Part shown: positions 54,670 through 60,234 of the stretch, piece after piece
Numbering within the stretch: position 1 is the first letter of the stretch
How the letters are laid out: every line of letters begins with the position of its first letter
Assembly: GCA_963712965.1 (NCBI GenBank)
Contig: CAVQJZ010000003.1
Location: forward strand, 66,878 to 130,877
Direction: 5' to 3'
Length of the DNA: 64,000 bases
DNA from: an uncultured Pseudomonadota bacterium
GTDB lineage: Bacteria; Pseudomonadota; Gammaproteobacteria; DASZBR01
The notes under the pieces: generated by a model
The model's database searches: none
What the model was told of the DNA's origin: nothing
The model's input: the letters and a program-made list of their open reading frames with translations, nothing else
Translations under genes and position numbers: made by a program

Positions 54670-55866
54670 ATGTTAACTAAAGTAATATTTCCAAACTTGA
54701 AAAAAGGAGACAAACCTAGATGTCTTCTCGTAATCAGTCTTGGTCAAGATCTTCAATCGGGTGAAAAACTTAAAGTAACTATTGAAGGCATAAATAAACA
54801 ATTTTCAGAATGCACTGTTGTTATCGCTGATTCCCTGCAAAAACATAATCAAAGAATTTTAGGCCTAGATGAAAATGCAGCCACAGAAGCTGCTTTAGCA
54901 AGCGGCAAAAAATGGCTTGAAGAAAATAAAATCACTTTAGATGCTTTACAAATACCACATGCTATTCATCATTGGACTGAATACACATCAAGCGCAGACT
55001 TCCAAAATGCATTACGTAGCGTAAAAGATAGATATAACACGGATGTCGATTATAAAGCTGATCTGGATGACGCAATCGCCAGTTTTTATGCCAACTTCTC
55101 CTCCGCTCACAAAGACAAAAAAAGACTCCCAAGAAGAGAAGCAGAGGAATTTATACGAGAATATATAGAAGAAGAATATGCGGTAATGAAAGTATGGGAA
55201 AAAACTCTTGGCGACGTAAGACTCACATATCCAATAAGCCACAGCAAGATTGCCGCGTTAGTCTACGATGCTTTTAAAGCTCATCTTGCAGTAAAAAAAT
55301 CTAGTTTAATTTTTCAAGATATGCAATTTACAGGTGAAAAGAAAAATGGAGCTGCCAAAAATGGCGCAGCTAACGGAAAATCTATTCCTAGTGCAAAAAA
55401 AGAAAGCTCTGACGAACACTCATCTCGATCACGAAGCAATTCCAGTTCTTCAGGTGAAGATAACGACGAAGAGAAAGCTCTACGCAAAATAGCAAAAACC
55501 ACTTTCGAAATAATGAATGGTTTACCAAAAGAGCAGCAGCTTGACGATACTTTTACGATTGCCGCTAAGTCTGCGGCCGCTGCCATAAACGCAATCAAAA
55601 CAACAAATGCGGTGTCGATATCCAGACTTGGAATTCTCAAAGTATCGACAACACCACGAACCAGCCCTCCTCTGTCGCCACATTCTTCCCCTACAGAAGA
55701 AATACCTCCTCGTGTATCGCCGCCAAAACGTTCTTCAGCTCCTAGCGATGATAGAATCGAAGAAGGCGCGCAAGAAACAACAAGCAACGAACGGCCTAAA
55801 AGCTTAACTATTGCTGAATTGGAAGATTTTGCAAAGCATCATAATAACGGATTTACTAAAAAGTAA
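54670..55866 (+). CDS. Cyclodipeptide synthase (CDPS)-like protein, XYP-type, with a ~175-aa Ser/Pro-rich low-complexity C-terminal extension
   Basis: V-I-S23-L-G-Q26, Y165-x3-E169 and Y187-P188 correspond to AlbC G35-I-S37-A-G-N40, Y178/E182 and Y202/H203. Ser-to-Tyr spacing is 142 aa versus 141. Residues 221-398 are low complexity. Confidence 0.7.
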   Translation: MLTKVIFPNLKKGDKPRCLLVISLGQDLQSGEKLKVTIEGINKQFSECTVVIADSLQKHNQRILGLDENAATEAALASGKKWLEENKITLDALQIPHAIHHWTEYTSSADFQNALRSVKDRYNTDVDYKADLDDAIASFYANFSSAHKDKKRLPRREAEEFIREYIEEEYAVMKVWEKTLGDVRLTYPISHSKIAALVYDAFKAHLAVKKSSLIFQDMQFTGEKKNGAAKNGAANGKSIPSAKKESSDEHSSRSRSNSSSSGEDNDEEKALRKIAKTTFEIMNGLPKEQQLDDTFTIAAKSAAAAINAIKTTNAVSISRLGILKVSTTPRTSPPLSPHSSPTEEIPPRVSPPKRSSAPSDDRIEEGAQETTSNERPKSLTIAELEDFAKHHNNGFTKK

Positions 55867-55870
55867 TTTT

Positions 55871-56245
55871 CTAATTTCGAGTTAATTGGTTCAAATATTC
55901 TTCGACAGTTTCTTTAGCAAGTGGTTTCGTAATGTATCCATTCATTCCTGCTTCAGAAGCTTGTTTTTTATATTCATCACTGTTGTGAGCTGTTAAGCCA
56001 ACAATGCATATATGAACCTTTTCTTCCAATGCGCGAATTATTTTTGTCACAGCAAAGCCATTTGTATCAGGCAATCCAATATCCATGAAAATAATATCAT
56101 AGTGATTTGTCTTAAAAAGATTTAAAGCGGATTCACCATTACTTGCTGTATCTACATCACAACCTACTTCGATCAAAACCATTGACGCGATTTTTTGTGC
56201 GATCATATTATCTTCCACAAGCAATGCTCTAATTTTCTTATTCAT
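55871..56245 (-). CDS. Stand-alone response-regulator receiver (CheY-like) protein
   Basis: LLVEDN, FMDIGLPD (Asp55), GLTAH, ITKPL. There is no output domain. Confidence 0.9.
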   Translation of the reverse strand: MNKKIRALLVEDNMIAQKIASMVLIEVGCDVDTASNGESALNLFKTNHYDIIFMDIGLPDTNGFAVTKIIRALEEKVHICIVGLTAHNSDEYKKQASEAGMNGYITKPLAKETVEEYLNQLTRN

Positions 56246-56251
56246 AAAAAT

Positions 56252-57814
56252 TTACTCCTCCTTACTCGTCGTCTCATTTGATAATGGTAATTTAAACGGC
56301 AAAATGCAAACAAAAGCACTTCCTTTGCCAACCTCGCTATTCACTTCAATCTCGCCTTCCATTTCTTCGACGAATTGTTTAACTACTCGCAATCCCAAAC
56401 CTAAACCTTTGTGAACTCCTTGGTTAGCCGGTGTTCCTCGCGTAAATTTTTCATAAATATACTCTAATTTTTCTTTTGGAATACCGCTTCCTGTGTCTTT
56501 AACAACTATTTTAATGAGTACACTTTTACCCTTTTTTTGTATCTCATATAACTCAACTTTGATAGACCCTGCTTGAGTAAACTTGATTGCGTTGCTTAGC
56601 AAATTAATAAGTATACGCTGCAGACGATAGTCATCACCCAAAAGAATAGCAGATATACTCTCATCATACGCGGCAATTAATTCTAAGTTTTTGTTTTTGG
56701 CCGCAGGCATTTCCATTGCAACAACACTATCAACCAATTTCTTCAGTTCAAACTTTTTAACAATAACAGGTCTATTACCATGCTCGATATTAGAAAAATC
56801 AAGCACGCCATTGCAAAAGTCTAATAATTCCTTTGAAGCCATCGCCAAATAATTAAGTAACTCTTTTTTTTCTGAATCATTTTCTTTTTCAAATAGATTA
56901 TTGGCCAAATAATAAATGCCGGCGCATGGTGTTCTAATGTCATGTTCCATATTATGGATAAAATCCATTTTTACTTGGTTAGCGATTTTCAGTTGCTCCT
57001 CGTATTTTTTTCTTTCACTAATATCAATAGATATACCGAGCAGACCATTTACATGTCCTTGCTTATCCTTCAACGGAACTTTTCTCGTTAGATATACGGC
57101 GTGATTTCCTTTGGAATCAAAAGCATCTTCTTCTATAGAATGCTCAAAACCTAAAGCCATTATTCTTTCATCTTCGTTGGAAACCACATGAGCGACATCC
57201 CCATCATTTTTTCCAATTATTTCTTCAAGAGTTTTTCCGATAACATCCTGCCTTGAGCTGGCATTAATCAATTTTAATATATTGTAATTACACCCAAGAT
57301 AAACACCTGATCTGTTTTTCCAATAAACATTCCCTGGCATTAACGCAATAATTTCATGAAGATTTTCCAATTCATCTGACAACTTTAGACGTTCACTTCT
57401 TATCGATTTCAATTCCTGCTCGTAAAATTTTATTTTTTGCTGAGCTTGTTCTTGATCAATCTCTTCTTGGCAAATAGTGATTAGACCAGAAGAACTCGTT
57501 TGAATATCATTAAATGGAATTCGAGTAATCGTTGCATTAGAAACAATACCGTCATCACTTGAGCGACTTTCTCTCTCGGTTAATCTTTGTTGAGTTGATA
57601 TGGCTTCTTCATCAAACTTAGTAACATGATCAGCGATTGATTTTTTGACCAAATCGTAGATAGTCTTTCCAACGATTTCTTGGGGTGAGGATAAATTATA
57701 AGATTTTGCAGCACTATGACTACAGAATAGATAACGACCATCTTTATCTTTGACAGCAACATTCAGTGGCAAAACAGAAACCAGCTCTTTCAAAAAAACT
57801 AAATTCATATCCAT
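56252..57814 (-). CDS. Soluble PAS-PAS sensor histidine kinase (HisKA + HATPase_c, no TM, no receiver)
   Basis: Two PAS modules (second: LMPGNVYWKNRSGVYLGCN), H-box FIHNMEHDIRTP, N-box LLSNAIKF, G-boxes DTGSGI and GLGLGL. Confidence 0.9.
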   Translation of the reverse strand: MDMNLVFLKELVSVLPLNVAVKDKDGRYLFCSHSAAKSYNLSSPQEIVGKTIYDLVKKSIADHVTKFDEEAISTQQRLTERESRSSDDGIVSNATITRIPFNDIQTSSSGLITICQEEIDQEQAQQKIKFYEQELKSIRSERLKLSDELENLHEIIALMPGNVYWKNRSGVYLGCNYNILKLINASSRQDVIGKTLEEIIGKNDGDVAHVVSNEDERIMALGFEHSIEEDAFDSKGNHAVYLTRKVPLKDKQGHVNGLLGISIDISERKKYEEQLKIANQVKMDFIHNMEHDIRTPCAGIYYLANNLFEKENDSEKKELLNYLAMASKELLDFCNGVLDFSNIEHGNRPVIVKKFELKKLVDSVVAMEMPAAKNKNLELIAAYDESISAILLGDDYRLQRILINLLSNAIKFTQAGSIKVELYEIQKKGKSVLIKIVVKDTGSGIPKEKLEYIYEKFTRGTPANQGVHKGLGLGLRVVKQFVEEMEGEIEVNSEVGKGSAFVCILPFKLPLSNETTSKEE

Positions 57815-57937: not shown

Positions 57938-58216
57938 ATGACCGATTTTACTAAAGAAGCCCTTAAAATGTTCGCTCAAGTCATCCCAGAAGAGCTCGCT
58001 GCTCTGGAAAGTGCTCATCGAGCTCAAGACTGGAAAGTGATTTATGAATACATTCATAAAATGAAAAGCTCGGCGGTTTATTGCAAAGCCTTCAAATTGC
58101 GCGATGCATGCGCCGATTTAGAACAATATTTGAGATCATCGGAAAATATTGAACATCGTGAACAGCTTTATCAGGTAGTTTTAGACGAAATTGATGTGGT
58201 GAGAAAAGATCTCTGA
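57938..58216 (+). CDS. Stand-alone Hpt (histidine phosphotransfer) domain protein
   Basis: YIH40KMKSSAVYCKA fits the Hpt HxxKG/S motif. The 92-aa size is consistent with a four-helix bundle. Confidence 0.75.
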   Translation: MTDFTKEALKMFAQVIPEELAALESAHRAQDWKVIYEYIHKMKSSAVYCKAFKLRDACADLEQYLRSSENIEHREQLYQVVLDEIDVVRKDL

Positions 58217-58242
58217 TCATGAAAGACATAATATGTATTCAT

Positions 58243-58268
58243 AGGGGCAGACCTATGTGTCTGCCCTG
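58243..58268. repeat. Family E-variant hairpin (aggggcagacctatgtgtctgccc)
   Basis: The 18-mer aggggcagacctatgtgt is exactly inverted at 59661-59678. Confidence 0.7.
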
Positions 58269-58275
58269 TTTTTGC

Positions 58276-59544
58276 TCAAACCAAATTCTCACTAAAAATC
58301 TTTGCGATTAATTCTGATTTAGACACACATCCTAACTTATCTTTTGCGTTATCAACATAAAACTCCACGGTACGTGGTGATAAACCCATTTTTTTTGCTA
58401 CTAACTTAAGCGTCATACCACGAACTAAATAATGAATACATTCTGACTCACGCTTAGAAAGCCCTAAATACTTGTGCGCCTTATGCAACTCATTTATTTT
58501 CTCTTTTGGTAGTGTAATTGGCATATCTTCAATGGCAATTTCTTGAGCTTCAGCATTTAGATTAAAATGAGCAAAACCCTCGACATCTATCGCCATGTTT
58601 TCTAAATCTTCGCTGATTTTCTTAAGCTCAACAGCTGATTTTTTGGGTGATTTCAATCCTTTGAGCGCCAAACGAAAATCCTTCGCCAAATTAGACAGAA
58701 ATTCCGTTTTTGCACGATTGGCATTCTCCGCAATTTCTTTTGCCGCAAGAAGCTGCTCTTCCATTTTCTTTCTTTCAGTGATATCTATCGAAACACCCAA
58801 TAACCCAACTACTTTCCCCTGATCATCATGTAATGGAAGTTTCTTTGTGAAAAACAATGCCTTCTCATTTTTAGAATTAATACCCGGCTCTTCATAAATT
58901 AGTTCTTTGTCAGACGCCATAATTTTTTCATCATCAGCAGTCACTTGATCTGCAAGTTTTTTATTAAGGATGGCGTGTATTTTTTTGCCAATTAAATCTT
59001 TTGGTGCTTTAAGTCCAAGATTGTCTACATTATTTTGATTGCTACCAAGATACACACCTTCTCGATTTTTCCAGTACACATTCCCAGGCATCAAAACAAT
59101 TAATTCCTCTAGGTAATGCATCCTGTTAATAAACTCCGCTTTGGATTTATTTGATTCTTCTAATGCTTTTTCCATTTTTTTACGTTCGGTGATATCAAAA
59201 GAAACGCCTAACAAACCAACAACGCTATTATTTTCATTAACTAAAGGGATTTTTTTAGTTAAAAAAATCATGGGTTCTACACCAGAGGGCGCGTAGATTT
59301 CTTCAAGCATAACTTCTTGATTCGTTGACATGACTTTCTCATCAACCACATAAATTTTATCTGCATCATTCTTATCAACTAAATCGTACGTCTTTTTCCC
59401 TATAAACTCTCTCGAGGATTTTAATCCGAAAGTTTTCACAAGATTCTCATTACACCCCAAATACACCCCGTCTCTATTTTTCCAATAGACGTTACCTGGC
59501 ATAACAGCAATTAATTGTTCAAGAAGAACATTATTGAGATCCAT
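58276..59544 (-). CDS. PAS-PAS-LuxR/GerE HTH transcriptional regulator with a His-less HisKA-like remnant (no receiver domain)
   Basis: Two PAS modules paralogous to those of the kinase (MPGNVYWKNRDGVYLGCN; MPGNVYWKNREGVYLGSN). NRAKTEFLSNLAKDFRLAL sits in the H-box position. The C-terminal LSKRESECIHYLVRGMTLKLVAKKMGLSPRTVEFYVDNAKDKLG is a LuxR-type HTH. Confidence 0.85.
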   Translation of the reverse strand: MDLNNVLLEQLIAVMPGNVYWKNRDGVYLGCNENLVKTFGLKSSREFIGKKTYDLVDKNDADKIYVVDEKVMSTNQEVMLEEIYAPSGVEPMIFLTKKIPLVNENNSVVGLLGVSFDITERKKMEKALEESNKSKAEFINRMHYLEELIVLMPGNVYWKNREGVYLGSNQNNVDNLGLKAPKDLIGKKIHAILNKKLADQVTADDEKIMASDKELIYEEPGINSKNEKALFFTKKLPLHDDQGKVVGLLGVSIDITERKKMEEQLLAAKEIAENANRAKTEFLSNLAKDFRLALKGLKSPKKSAVELKKISEDLENMAIDVEGFAHFNLNAEAQEIAIEDMPITLPKEKINELHKAHKYLGLSKRESECIHYLVRGMTLKLVAKKMGLSPRTVEFYVDNAKDKLGCVSKSELIAKIFSENLV

Positions 59545-59622: not shown

Positions 59623-59680
59623 GTCATGGCGCGCTTGTGTGAGCGCCCAAGACATGGCGGACACATAGGTCTGCCCCTAC
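59623..59680. repeat. Degenerate family A-like hairpin plus an inverted copy of the 18-mer
   Basis: gtcatggcgcgcttgtgtgagcgcc... then acacataggtctgcccct (59661-59678). Confidence 0.55.
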
Positions 59681-59702: not shown

Positions 59703-60137
59703 TTAATTTTTGAGCAAAATTTTGCTTAATTGCTTACGGTTTTTGATTACATCTGCCAAAGTGTATTGCGCTAAAACTTTGATAAAACTATTTTTAGCTT
59801 CATCTAAAACATGCTTTAGTCGACATACGGGTGAAATCACACACTTCCCGTTTGCTTGATCAAAACATTCAACGATAAAAAAATTAGGCTCTATTTTTTG
59901 AACCAGGTCACCAAGGTTAATATGTTCTGGCTTTGCATTAAGCTGCAAGCCACCCTTTTTACCTCGAATCGTTTTAAGCACACCAAGCTTACTCAAGCGA
60001 TGGATAACTTTCATCAAGTGATTTTTAGAAATTTTGTAGCTGTCGGCAACTTCAGAGATGGTGCAGACCTCATCGTTACGCAGCGCAATATAAATCAGTG
60101 CGCGTAATGAATAATCTGTAAATTGTGTGAGCTGCAT
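59703..60137 (-). CDS. Rrf2 family transcriptional regulator (NsrR-like, three-Cys Fe-S cluster ligands)
   Basis: MQLTQFTDYSLRALIYIA is an Rrf2 N-terminus and wHTH. Cys91-x7-Cys99-x5-Cys105 is present. The start is set at 60137. Confidence 0.85.
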   Translation of the reverse strand: MQLTQFTDYSLRALIYIALRNDEVCTISEVADSYKISKNHLMKVIHRLSKLGVLKTIRGKKGGLQLNAKPEHINLGDLVQKIEPNFFIVECFDQANGKCVISPVCRLKHVLDEAKNSFIKVLAQYTLADVIKNRKQLSKILLKN

Positions 60138-60183
60138 AATGAAAACCTCATGGAAAGTATTGCATAGTGAAGCCACAATGTTT

Positions 60184-60206
60184 AACATTCATTTTAAATA
60201 CATGTT
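60184..60206. promoter_or_regulatory. NsrR-box-like 11-1-11 inverted repeat AACATTCATTT-T-AAATACATGTT
   Basis: The half-sites match each other at 9 of 11 positions and resemble my recollection of the gammaproteobacterial NsrR consensus (AAnATGnATTT-n-AAATnCATnTT). It lies between the divergent Rrf2 and globin genes. Confidence 0.5.
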
Positions 60207-60234
60207 ATGGCATTCTTACTATTAGGAGCAATTG

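What the first reader, a model, noticed from the sequence alone, without database searches (positions are those of the whole stretch)
58654..58761. PAS-LuxR regulator carries a His-less histidine-kinase dimerisation (DHp) remnant
After its second PAS domain the protein reads EEQLLAAKEIAENANRAKTEFLSNLAKDFRLALKGL. This is the canonical HisKA entry helix (..A..ANRAKSEFLANMSHELRTPLN..) with the phospho-accepting SHELRTP replaced by AKDFRLA. The ATPase domain is replaced by a linker and a LuxR HTH. The adjacent true kinase has the intact version (FIHNMEHDIRTP). This looks like a kinase-derived transcription factor. It could dimerise, or heterodimerise with the neighbouring kinase, through the relic DHp helices, coupling PAS sensing directly to DNA binding without phosphorylation.
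Basis: partly seen in the sequence, partly recalled or inferred. Interest (0 to 1): 0.6.

Follow-up and report, generated by a model that had tools for sequence, protein, structure and literature searches.

The report
Kinase-derived PAS regulator with dead DHp
A bacterial DNA-binding regulator has kept the two-helix dimerisation stalk of a sensor kinase but lost the phosphorylated histidine and the ATP-using domain, and its rare relatives show the steps by which a kinase was converted into a direct, phosphorylation-free transcription factor.

Summary
The gene at 58276-59544 (minus strand, 422 aa) reads PAS-PAS, then a helix-loop-helix, a disordered linker and a LuxR/GerE HTH. Residues 262-297 are exactly the quoted sequence.

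The helix-loop-helix is a degenerate DHp (HisKA) domain, not just an entry helix. Lys288 sits at the phospho-His position and there is no ATPase domain. Pfam HisKA does not detect it, and helix 2 of this protein alone is not significantly similar to kinases. Homology is established through the family:
- About 14 relatives share the DHp-like-plus-LuxR module. Only about 10 clusters were found among 1.84 billion representatives.
- Four relatives keep an intact H-box and a full-length DHp. Three of them pass Pfam's HisKA threshold.
- The His-less members carry K, N, S, T or G at that position. Their hairpins are progressively shortened, from 45 residues down to 23. The histidine was probably lost more than once.

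In 6 of 8 informative loci a PAS histidine kinase lies within three genes. A seventh has a receiver gene directly downstream.

The most likely role is a catalytically dead homodimerisation and signal-transmitting bundle that places two LuxR HTHs under PAS control. Heterodimerisation with the neighbouring kinase or receiver docking remain possible but untested. This is a new variant of known kinds, of moderate interest.

The parts
58276..59544 (-). Whole gene: PAS-PAS-(degenerate DHp)-linker-LuxR HTH regulator, 422 aa (P0002)
   Evidence: ORF list and translation; Pfam domains; AF2 mean pLDDT 84.9
59185..59514 (-). PAS domain 1 (residues 11-120)
   Evidence: Pfam PAS_9/PAS; the NCBIfam ArcB model aligns residues 5-142 to ArcB 154-290
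59092..59190 (-). Inter-PAS helix (residues 119-151). It carries an H-box-entry-like motif, SNKSKAEFINRMHY, a relic of a duplicated PAS-plus-helix unit.
   Evidence: AF2 helix 119-151; sequence read directly; the ArcB model alignment ends at ArcB residue 290
58768..59088 (-). PAS domain 2 (residues 153-259)
   Evidence: Pfam PAS_4, E 2e-27
58654..58779 (-). Signalling helix plus DHp helix 1 (residues 256-297). Includes the family-invariant residues N276, R277, K279, E281, F282 and L283.
   Evidence: AF2 helix 256-297; hhalign to true DHp, E 1.3e-11; invariant columns; heptad pattern
58681..58683 (-). Codon of Lys288, at the position of the phospho-accepting His of HisKA
   Evidence: Alignment with His-intact relatives and true kinases
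58636..58653 (-). Hairpin loop KSPKKS (residues 298-303). The hairpin tip is about 13 residues shorter than in His-intact relatives.
   Evidence: AF2; spacing table 32 vs 45
58558..58635 (-). DHp helix 2 (residues 304-329), with the invariant residues D320, F324, A325 and L329
   Evidence: AF2 helix 304-325. The family profile aligns this helix to the iLdFsk end of DHp helix 2 in HK853 and 7z8n. hhalign A4 vs A5, E 3.5e-6.
58507..58557 (-). Variable, predicted disordered linker (residues 330-346), sitting where the ATPase domain would be attached
   Evidence: pLDDT <50 at 330-350 and at 75-90 of the C-terminal model; poorly conserved columns
58279..58506 (-). Extra helix (347-360) plus four-helix LuxR/GerE DNA-binding domain (362-418)
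   Evidence: Pfam GerE, E 5.9e-14. Foldseek hits to GerE, NarL and the VqmA HTH, rmsd 0.8-1.1 A, up to 37% identity.
57938..58216 (+). Stand-alone Hpt protein (92 aa), convergent with the regulator gene
   Evidence: Pfam Hpt, E 1.4e-12
56252..57814 (-). PAS-PAS-HisKA-HATPase histidine kinase with an intact H-box (P0103)
   Evidence: Pfam; 38% identity to the regulator over 70% of its length
55871..56245 (-). Stand-alone receiver (REC) protein, 124 aa
   Evidence: Pfam Response_reg, E 6.8e-26

Best explanation
The protein is a one-component transcription factor that evolved from an ArcB/BarA-type soluble PAS histidine kinase.

What it kept: the PAS sensors, the signalling helix and both helices of the DHp four-helix-bundle domain.
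What it lost: the ATP-binding domain, which is replaced by a flexible linker plus a LuxR-type HTH, and the phospho-accepting His, which is now Lys288.

The relic DHp most likely no longer takes part in any phosphoryl chemistry. It probably serves as the parallel homodimerisation bundle that (i) holds two LuxR HTHs together so they can bind a two-fold symmetric operator and (ii) receives the helical signal from the PAS domains. Ligand or redox sensing by PAS would then be coupled to DNA binding without phosphorylation.

Shown: domain anatomy, homology to DHp, absence of His and of the CA domain, conservation of the bundle-core residues, rarity of the family, and linkage to kinase genes.
Inferred: dimerisation, the direction of signal flow, and DNA binding.
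For: Homology to DHp:
- The profile of 7 family DHp regions hits solved histidine kinases over both helices (7z8n 4.3e-7; HK853 3dge 7.6e-6).
- hhalign to 11 true DHp domains gives probability 99.6% and E 1e-24.
- With only His-less members and without the entry helix it still gives 87.6% and E 3.5e-6, in register.
- His-intact relatives with the same PAS-DHp-LuxR architecture pass Pfam HisKA over model positions 2-64 of 66 (44.6, 37.6 and 30.5 bits, threshold 26.9).
- These relatives align with the window protein over the whole C-terminal module (P0094: 103.8 bits, E 1e-24).

Structure:
- AF2 predicts helix 256-297, a loop, helix 304-325, then a disordered linker and the HTH.
- Both helices carry conserved 3-4 spaced hydrophobic stripes.

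Selection acts on the bundle, not on the chemistry:
- N276, R277, K279, E281, F282, L283, D320, F324, A325 and L329 are invariant in 14 sequences at about 45% identity.
- The His column reads K, N, S, T, G or H, and the hairpin tip varies from 45 to 23 residues.
- His-less and His-intact clades interleave in the tree.

No HATPase_c is present. LuxR HTHs bind DNA as dimers; this is established knowledge (GerE, NarL, TraR and VqmA structures were returned).
Against: - No oligomer prediction or experiment was possible, so dimerisation is an inference.
- The 17-25-residue linker between helix 2 and the HTH is predicted disordered. Rigid helical transmission from the bundle to the HTH is therefore unlikely, and the coupling mechanism is open.
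- A sister group (P0006, P0009, P0011, P0017) joins PAS to LuxR through a plain helix without a hairpin. The hairpin is therefore not strictly required for a PAS-LuxR regulator.
- The strong linkage to kinase or REC genes (7 of 8 loci) hints at an interaction that a purely autonomous one-component model does not explain.
- Helix 2 of the window protein alone is not significantly kinase-like, and a Foldseek search of the C-terminal model returned only HTH hits.
Confidence: 0.55

Rival explanations
1. Heterodimerisation with a kinase. The relic DHp pairs with the DHp of the neighbouring PAS kinase, as RetS does with GacS. The regulator would then inhibit the kinase, or be sequestered or released by it, tying DNA binding to the state of the kinase.
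For: - A PAS-HisKA kinase lies within three genes in 6 of 8 informative loci: the window, L001, L003, L005, L099 and L101.
- The window's own genome has only 6 HisKA matches in 1.08 Mb.
- The regulator and the neighbouring kinase share paralogous PAS-helix modules (38% identity).
- DHp-DHp heterodimers between different kinases are documented for RetS-GacS (PMC8498467).
Against: - The hairpins differ in length: 32 residues from the His position to the helix-2 motif in the regulator, about 46 in the kinases.
- The paralogue P0068 in the same genome has no kinase nearby.
- The neighbouring kinase is not the regulator's closest kinase relative; other kinases reach 45-47% identity and it reaches 38%.
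- Adjacency could equally reflect origin by tandem duplication, or the regulator controlling the kinase operon.
Confidence: 0.12
2. Receiver-docking sensor. The dead DHp binds a phosphorylated receiver domain, either the stand-alone REC at 55871-56245 or a hybrid kinase's REC, as the pseudokinase DivL binds DivK~P. The His-Asp-His relay in this locus has no receiver-output protein, and in this model it would act on transcription through binding and not through phosphotransfer.
For: - The locus has a kinase, a REC and an Hpt but no REC-output regulator, and the PAS-LuxR protein is the only DNA-binding protein in it.
- The His-intact relative P0094 is followed 10 bp later by a stand-alone REC.
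- The window's own genome also has an 87-aa DHp-only ORF directly upstream of a REC.
- DivL shows that a His-less DHp can act as a phospho-specific receiver sensor (PMC4211667).
- The acidic residue at His+1 is retained in all 14 members.
Against: - In kinases the receiver docks on helix 1 below the His and on the start of helix 2. This is exactly the part that is deleted in the window protein (helix 1 ends 9 residues after position 288) and deleted even further in the P0068 group.
- The His+4 Thr/Asn of the phosphatase motif is Leu here.
- The remaining post-His positions are poorly conserved in the family.
Confidence: 0.13
3. Decaying spacer. After the kinase-to-regulator conversion, the DHp remnant has no specific function beyond being a helical linker. 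PAS-PAS contacts and the HTH provide all the dimerisation, and the hairpin is being lost by drift.
For: - The hairpin shortens progressively (45, 41, 32, 30, 24, 23) and the former His position is freely substituted.
- The sister group has a plain helix and no hairpin.
- Pfam HisKA detects none of the His-less members.
Against: - Ten positions in the two helices are invariant in 14 sequences that are otherwise about 45% identical. These include the helix-2 motif D-x-x-x-F-A-x-x-x-L, which survives in even the shortest hairpins.
- All deletions are confined to the hairpin tip and leave the upper bundle untouched, which is the pattern expected under purifying selection on the bundle.
Confidence: 0.15

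Closest known systems
ArcB/BarA/TorS-type PAS histidine kinases (Pfam HisKA PF00512 + HATPase_c), including the neighbouring kinase at 56252-57814
   Same: PAS modules, the signalling helix, the A-x-x-A-N-R-A-K-x-E-F-L entry into DHp helix 1 and the N-x-I-L-D-F-S-like end of helix 2. The best NCBIfam match is ArcB, and most full-length database relatives are such kinases.
   Different: No phospho-accepting His (Lys288) and no ATP-binding domain. The hairpin is about 13 residues shorter. The C-terminus is a LuxR HTH.
PAS-LuxR one-component regulators: VqmA (Vibrio cholerae DPO receptor), EL222 (LOV-HTH), PimM-type PAS-LuxR regulators
   Same: A PAS sensor is fused directly to a LuxR/GerE HTH with no receiver domain. 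The HTH is 35-37% identical to the VqmA HTH at rmsd 0.8 A, and whole-model Foldseek also returns VqmA.
   Different: Those proteins join PAS to the HTH by a short helix or linker. Here a kinase-type two-helix DHp module plus a disordered linker is interposed, and there are two PAS domains of the kinase type.
DivL pseudo-histidine kinase of Caulobacter (PMC4211667)
   Same: Multi-PAS protein whose DHp has lost the phospho-His (Tyr in DivL) and works without kinase activity. The DHp is repurposed for protein-protein interaction.
   Different: DivL keeps a CA domain and a full-length receiver-docking surface and has no DNA-binding domain. Here the CA domain is gone, the docking tip is truncated, and the output is a LuxR HTH.
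RetS-GacS multikinase network (PMC8498467)
   Same: Precedent for one DHp regulating another kinase by DHp-DHp contact. This is the model behind the heterodimer hypothesis.
   Different: RetS is a full hybrid kinase-like membrane protein. There is no DNA-binding domain, and the interaction has been shown experimentally there and not here.
NifL (PAS-PAS-H domain-GHKL anti-activator)
   Same: Top structural hit of the whole model (9qq6, E 2.9e-15). From general knowledge, not tested here: NifL is a kinase-derived PAS protein whose DHp-like H domain does not act in phosphotransfer.
   Different: NifL keeps the GHKL domain and acts by binding NifA, not DNA.
CA-less DHp phosphotransferases (Spo0B, ChpT) and stand-alone DHp mini-proteins
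   Same: A DHp fold without a working ATPase domain. The His-intact relatives (P0094, P0135-P0137) and the 87-aa DHp ORF in the same genome could in principle work this way.
   Different: The window protein has no His, so it cannot be a phosphotransferase.

Membership tests
HisKA / DHp domain (Pfam PF00512) | Significant match to the HisKA profile | tested here: inconclusive
   - Pfam HisKA: no hit for the window protein even at E<=10, nor in the six-frame genome scan.
- Custom true-DHp profile: helix 1 is significant (E 1.3e-11 including the signalling helix). The H-box stretch is borderline (18.2 vs a shuffle maximum of 17.1). Helix 2 alone is not significant.
- Family profile: E 1e-24, and 3.5e-6 for the stricter test; PDB kinases at 4e-7.
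- His-intact relatives pass Pfam's threshold.
HisKA / DHp domain (Pfam PF00512) | Antiparallel two-helix hairpin with hydrophobic core stripes | tested here: met
   AF2 helices 256-297 and 304-325, pLDDT 66-85; conserved 3-4 hydrophobic spacing in both helices
HisKA / DHp domain (Pfam PF00512) | Phospho-accepting histidine in the H-box | tested here: not met
   Lys288 is in the His column
Sensor histidine kinase | C-terminal HATPase_c (CA) domain | tested here: not met
   No HATPase_c match; after helix 2 come a disordered linker and a GerE HTH
LuxR/GerE (FixJ/NarL-type) HTH regulators | C-terminal four-helix GerE DNA-binding domain | tested here: met
   Pfam GerE, 51.9 bits (threshold 23.5), E 5.9e-14; Foldseek to GerE, NarL and VqmA at rmsd about 1 A
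PAS-LuxR one-component regulators (VqmA / EL222 type) | PAS sensor plus LuxR HTH in one chain, without a receiver domain | tested here: met
   Two PAS domains, a GerE domain and no Response_reg
PAS-LuxR one-component regulators (VqmA / EL222 type) | Ligand- or signal-dependent DNA binding | not testable with these tools
   No ligand or operator could be identified
Pseudo-histidine kinase acting as receiver sensor (DivL type) | Intact receiver-docking surface on helix 1 below the His position and on the start of helix 2 | tested here: not met
   Helix 1 ends 9 residues after position 288. The hairpin is 13 residues shorter than in His-intact relatives and the neighbouring kinase.
Histidine phosphotransferase (Spo0B / ChpT type) | Phosphorylatable His on a DHp-like bundle | tested here: not met
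   Lys288. The feature is met only in relatives P0094, P0135, P0136 and P0137.

The most novel reading that the evidence does not exclude
The PAS-DHp-LuxR family may be a hybrid between one- and two-component signalling, in which a transcription factor plugs directly into a kinase through its DHp.

In the His-intact members, the factor itself would be phosphorylated on histidine. This could happen in trans, by the CA domain of the adjacent PAS kinase in a mixed DHp bundle, or by reverse transfer from the adjacent receiver.

In the His-less members such as this one, the same contact would persist as a phosphorylation-free docking switch. The split kinase/REC/Hpt relay, which has no output regulator of its own, would then control transcription by binding the dead DHp.
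Probability: 0.12. Interest if true: 0.8.

Novelty: new variant of a known kind. Interest (0 to 1): 0.5.

Why it matters
Two-component systems are generally thought to have arisen from one-component regulators. This family shows the reverse route. A soluble PAS kinase lost its ATPase domain, gained a DNA-binding domain, and then repeatedly lost the phospho-histidine and trimmed the hairpin, while keeping the dimerisation core.

The family offers a natural series of intermediates: an intact H-box, then a dead H-box, then a truncated hairpin. That series could be used to ask which parts of a DHp are needed for dimerisation and signal transmission, as opposed to catalysis and receiver docking.

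If the conserved proximity to PAS kinases reflects physical coupling, it would be a new way of wiring a phosphorelay to transcription. As it stands the case is computational and the family is tiny and uncultured, so the practical impact is modest.

Tried and rejected
- **Pfam HisKA on the window protein.** No hit even at E<=10. The relic is invisible to standard annotation.
- **Single-sequence search of residues 261-361 against PDB.** Only a weak histidine-kinase hit (7z8n, E 0.56).
- **His-less-only profile without the entry helix against PDB sequences.** Not significant; the hits were generic helical bundles.
- **Foldseek of the whole model.** Dominated by PAS proteins (NifL, WalK, LOV-HK, VqmA). 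The C-terminal model returned only LuxR HTHs. Structure search therefore gave no independent confirmation of a DHp fold.
- **Scan of 185,579 GTDB species genomes with family patterns.** Only HTH-level relatives were returned. The four loci that seemed to cover more of the query (L007, L009, L042, L059) turned out to be unrelated LuxR proteins without a DHp. The four other genomes of the same order have only HTH matches.
- **Is the CDPS-like neighbour (54670-55866) part of the family's conserved context?** It is absent from the other family loci. It has a paralogue only beside another PAS kinase in the same genome.
- **Are the 'inverted 18-mers' flanking the gene signs of an invertible or mobile cassette?** They are two copies of a self-complementary REP-like hairpin. 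The downstream copy looks like a bidirectional terminator.
- **Is the inter-PAS motif SNKSKAEFINRMHY a second H-box?** Its His is one position out of register and no hairpin follows. It is read as a relic of a PAS-plus-helix duplication.
- **Literature searches for a described PAS-HisKA-LuxR architecture.** Nothing found. Absence from this library does not prove absence from the literature.

Full report
**Observation**

The minus-strand translation of window 58654-58761 is exactly EEQLLAAKEIAENANRAKTEFLSNLAKDFRLALKGL. This is residues 262-297 of a 422-aa ORF at 58276-59544.

Pfam finds two PAS domains (11-120 and 153-259) and a GerE/LuxR HTH (362-413, E 5.9e-14). It finds no HATPase_c, and no HisKA hit even at E<=10.

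The locus also holds three other signalling genes:
- a stand-alone Hpt (57938-58216, +);
- a PAS-PAS-HisKA-HATPase kinase with an intact FIHNMEHDIRTP H-box (56252-57814, -);
- a stand-alone receiver (55871-56245, -).

Several whole-kinase NCBIfam models (MASE3-PAS-HK, EpsF, NahK, PdhS, the scytonemin kinase) align to the regulator through residues 291-301, that is, through the H-box region.

**Is it really a DHp?**

For the window protein alone the evidence is strong for helix 1 and absent for helix 2:
- Residues 258-335 against a profile of 11 true DHp domains from related kinases gave hhalign E 1.3e-11, with 0 of 200 shuffles as good. Only residues 258-297 aligned.
- From F282 on, FLSNLAKDFRLALKGL aligns to FIxNMsHDIRTPLsGI with score 18.2, against a shuffle maximum of 17.1.
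- Residues 288-335 alone are at noise level.

The decisive evidence comes from relatives. A word-indexed search of 5.8 billion proteins and an exhaustive HMMER scan of 1.84 billion representatives with residues 262-422 were run. They found about 14 sequences (about 10 clusters at 50% identity) that share the whole helix-loop-helix-linker-LuxR module. All come from metagenomes, except a second copy in the same genome (P0068).

Four of these relatives (P0094, P0135, P0136, P0137) have an intact H-box (FLSNIAHDF(K/T)(T/V)P). Pfam HisKA matches them over model positions 1-2 to 63-64 of 66. Three are above the curated threshold (44.6, 37.6 and 30.5 bits against 26.9) and P0135 is below it (17.8 bits). 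None of them has an ATPase domain.

These His-intact proteins align with the window protein along the whole C-terminal module (P0094: 103.8 bits, E 1e-24).

The family profile gave these results:
- It hits solved kinases over both helices (7z8n at 4.3e-7; HK853 at 7.6e-6). The family motif lvNDIesFAk aligns to the iLdFSk end of DHp helix 2.
- Profile-profile comparison with true DHp domains gives 99.6% probability and E 1e-24.
- After removing the His-intact member and everything upstream of F282, it still gives 87.6% and E 3.5e-6, in register.

AlphaFold2 (21-sequence alignment, mean pLDDT 84.9) predicts helix 256-297, a loop, and helix 304-325. A disordered stretch at 326-346 follows, then an extra helix and the HTH. 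A second model of the C-terminal module alone gave the same result.

Both helices carry conserved 3-4 spaced hydrophobic stripes.

I conclude that the segment is a genuine but degenerate two-helix DHp, not merely a kinase-like entry helix.

One caveat applies. A similar entry motif (SNKSKAEFINRMHY) also occurs in the inter-PAS linker of the same protein and in relatives. PAS-plus-helix units were evidently duplicated in this lineage, so the motif alone would not have been diagnostic.

**Degeneration series**

At the His column the family shows:
- H in four members;
- K in the window protein and P0138;
- N in the P0068 group and P0134;
- S in P0008, T in P0026 and G in P0100.

The distance from that column to the invariant Asp of helix 2 is 45 residues in all His-intact members. 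I counted about 46 in a related kinase (sequence). In the His-less members it is 45, 41, 32 (the window protein), 30 and 23-24. All deletions map to the hairpin tip.

In contrast, N276, R277, K279, E281, F282, L283, D320, F324, A325 and L329 are invariant across 14 sequences at about 45% identity.

A maximum-likelihood tree places His-intact and His-less clades in an interleaved, partly unresolved arrangement. Together with the different replacement residues and deletion lengths, this suggests at least two independent losses of the His. Selection thus acts on the upper bundle and not on phospho-chemistry or the hairpin tip.

**Genomic context**

Eight loci were informative:

| Locus | Family member | Neighbouring signalling gene |
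|---|---|---|
| window | P0002 | PAS kinase within three genes |
| L001 | P0026 | PAS-HisKA kinase within three genes |
| L003 | P0124 | PAS-HisKA kinase within three genes |
| L005 | P0100 | PAS-HisKA kinase within three genes |
| L099 | P0135 | kinase 52 bp downstream |
| L101 | P0008 | hybrid kinase 114 bp upstream |
| L004 | P0094 (His-intact) | stand-alone REC 10 bp downstream |
| own genome | P0068 | none |

The window's own genome is a 57%-complete, 1.08-Mb MAG from an order with only five species genomes. It has just six HisKA matches. Chance proximity is therefore unlikely, roughly 3-4% per locus by my estimate.

The CDPS-like gene next to the relay is not part of the family's conserved context.

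**Mechanism**

The best-supported reading is a kinase-derived one-component regulator. The dead DHp would act as a homodimerisation and signal-receiving bundle that presents two LuxR HTHs.

Precedents for PAS-to-LuxR coupling without phosphorylation exist. VqmA and EL222 both appear among the structural hits, and the HTH is 35-37% identical to that of VqmA.

How the signal crosses the disordered linker is unknown. Sequestration and release of the HTH is one possibility, but that is speculation.

The rivals are:
- **DHp heterodimerisation with the neighbouring kinase** (RetS-GacS precedent, PMC8498467). Gene linkage supports it. Mismatched hairpin lengths and the kinase-less paralogue weaken it.
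- **Docking of a phosphorylated receiver** (DivL-DivK precedent, PMC4211667). It is attractive because the local His-Asp-His relay lacks an output regulator. It is weakened because the canonical docking tip is exactly what has been deleted.
- **A neutral decaying spacer.** The invariant core residues contradict it.

None of these could be tested directly here.

**Comparison and novelty**

The protein is not a member of the histidine kinases, because it has no His and no CA domain. It is not a phosphotransferase, because it has no His. It is a LuxR-family HTH protein and, by architecture, a PAS-LuxR one-component regulator.

The interposed kinase-type DHp and the set of intermediates were not found described in the searchable literature. 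None of the family members that carry source annotation has a specific name.

CA-less or His-less DHp proteins are a known and recurring theme (DivL, Spo0B/ChpT, stand-alone DHp proteins). I therefore rate this as a new variant of known kinds, of moderate interest.

Noticed in passing
Own genome contig C2:105788-106051 (-) = L102:1289-1552 (-), with a REC gene at L102:876-1274 (-): An 87-aa ORF encodes only a DHp with an intact H-box (EVSHAIRNPVTGILGM; Pfam HisKA 43.5 bits, model positions 7-53). It sits directly upstream of a stand-alone receiver and next to a 675-aa hybrid PAS kinase. It is either a stand-alone phosphotransfer or phosphatase hairpin, or a kinase fragment.
   Followed up: partly
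Own genome contig C3:193549-194412 (-) = L006:9547-10410 (-): A second, shorter paralogue of the regulator (P0068, 287 aa): one PAS, Asn at the His position, a hairpin spacing of only 24 residues, and the LuxR HTH. It has no kinase nearby. Its neighbours are an unknown 587-aa ORF and a Mur-ligase-like gene.
   Followed up: partly
window 58242-58272 and 59649-59679: Two copies of a GC-rich, self-complementary REP-like element (GGGGCAGACctatgtGTCTGCCC) flank the regulator gene; 31-nt arms, 90% complementary. The downstream copy lies between the convergent Hpt and regulator genes, and the scan called it terminator-like on the plus strand.
   Followed up: partly
window 54670-55866 (+) and L102:4573-4995 (+): A 398-aa protein with a weak Pfam CDPS (cyclodipeptide synthase) match (E 0.0039) and a Ser/Pro-rich tail lies next to the relay. 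A paralogue (30% identity over 141 aa) lies next to the other hybrid PAS kinase on contig C2. It is absent from the other DHp-LuxR loci.
   Followed up: partly
window 59703-61567: A 161-aa ORF, then divergently a 125-aa ORF and a 317-aa ORF, lie immediately upstream of the regulator gene. From the sequences alone they look like an Rrf2/NsrR-like regulator, a truncated haemoglobin and a 2Fe-2S/FAD reductase, i.e. a possible NO-detoxification module. I ran no domain search on them.
   Followed up: no
L001:4676-5698 and L101:3170-3886: In two metagenomic loci the DHp-LuxR gene is adjacent to a second PAS-GerE regulator gene, so these regulators occur in tandem pairs.
   Followed up: no
P0006, P0009, P0011, P0017, P0129 (metagenomic relatives): A sister group of PAS-PAS-LuxR proteins joins the same kinase-type PAS modules to a LuxR HTH. 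The connection is a single long helix (AKEKAEAALRAKEIAEAESREKS...) without a hairpin. This may be a parallel or further-reduced conversion.
   Followed up: no
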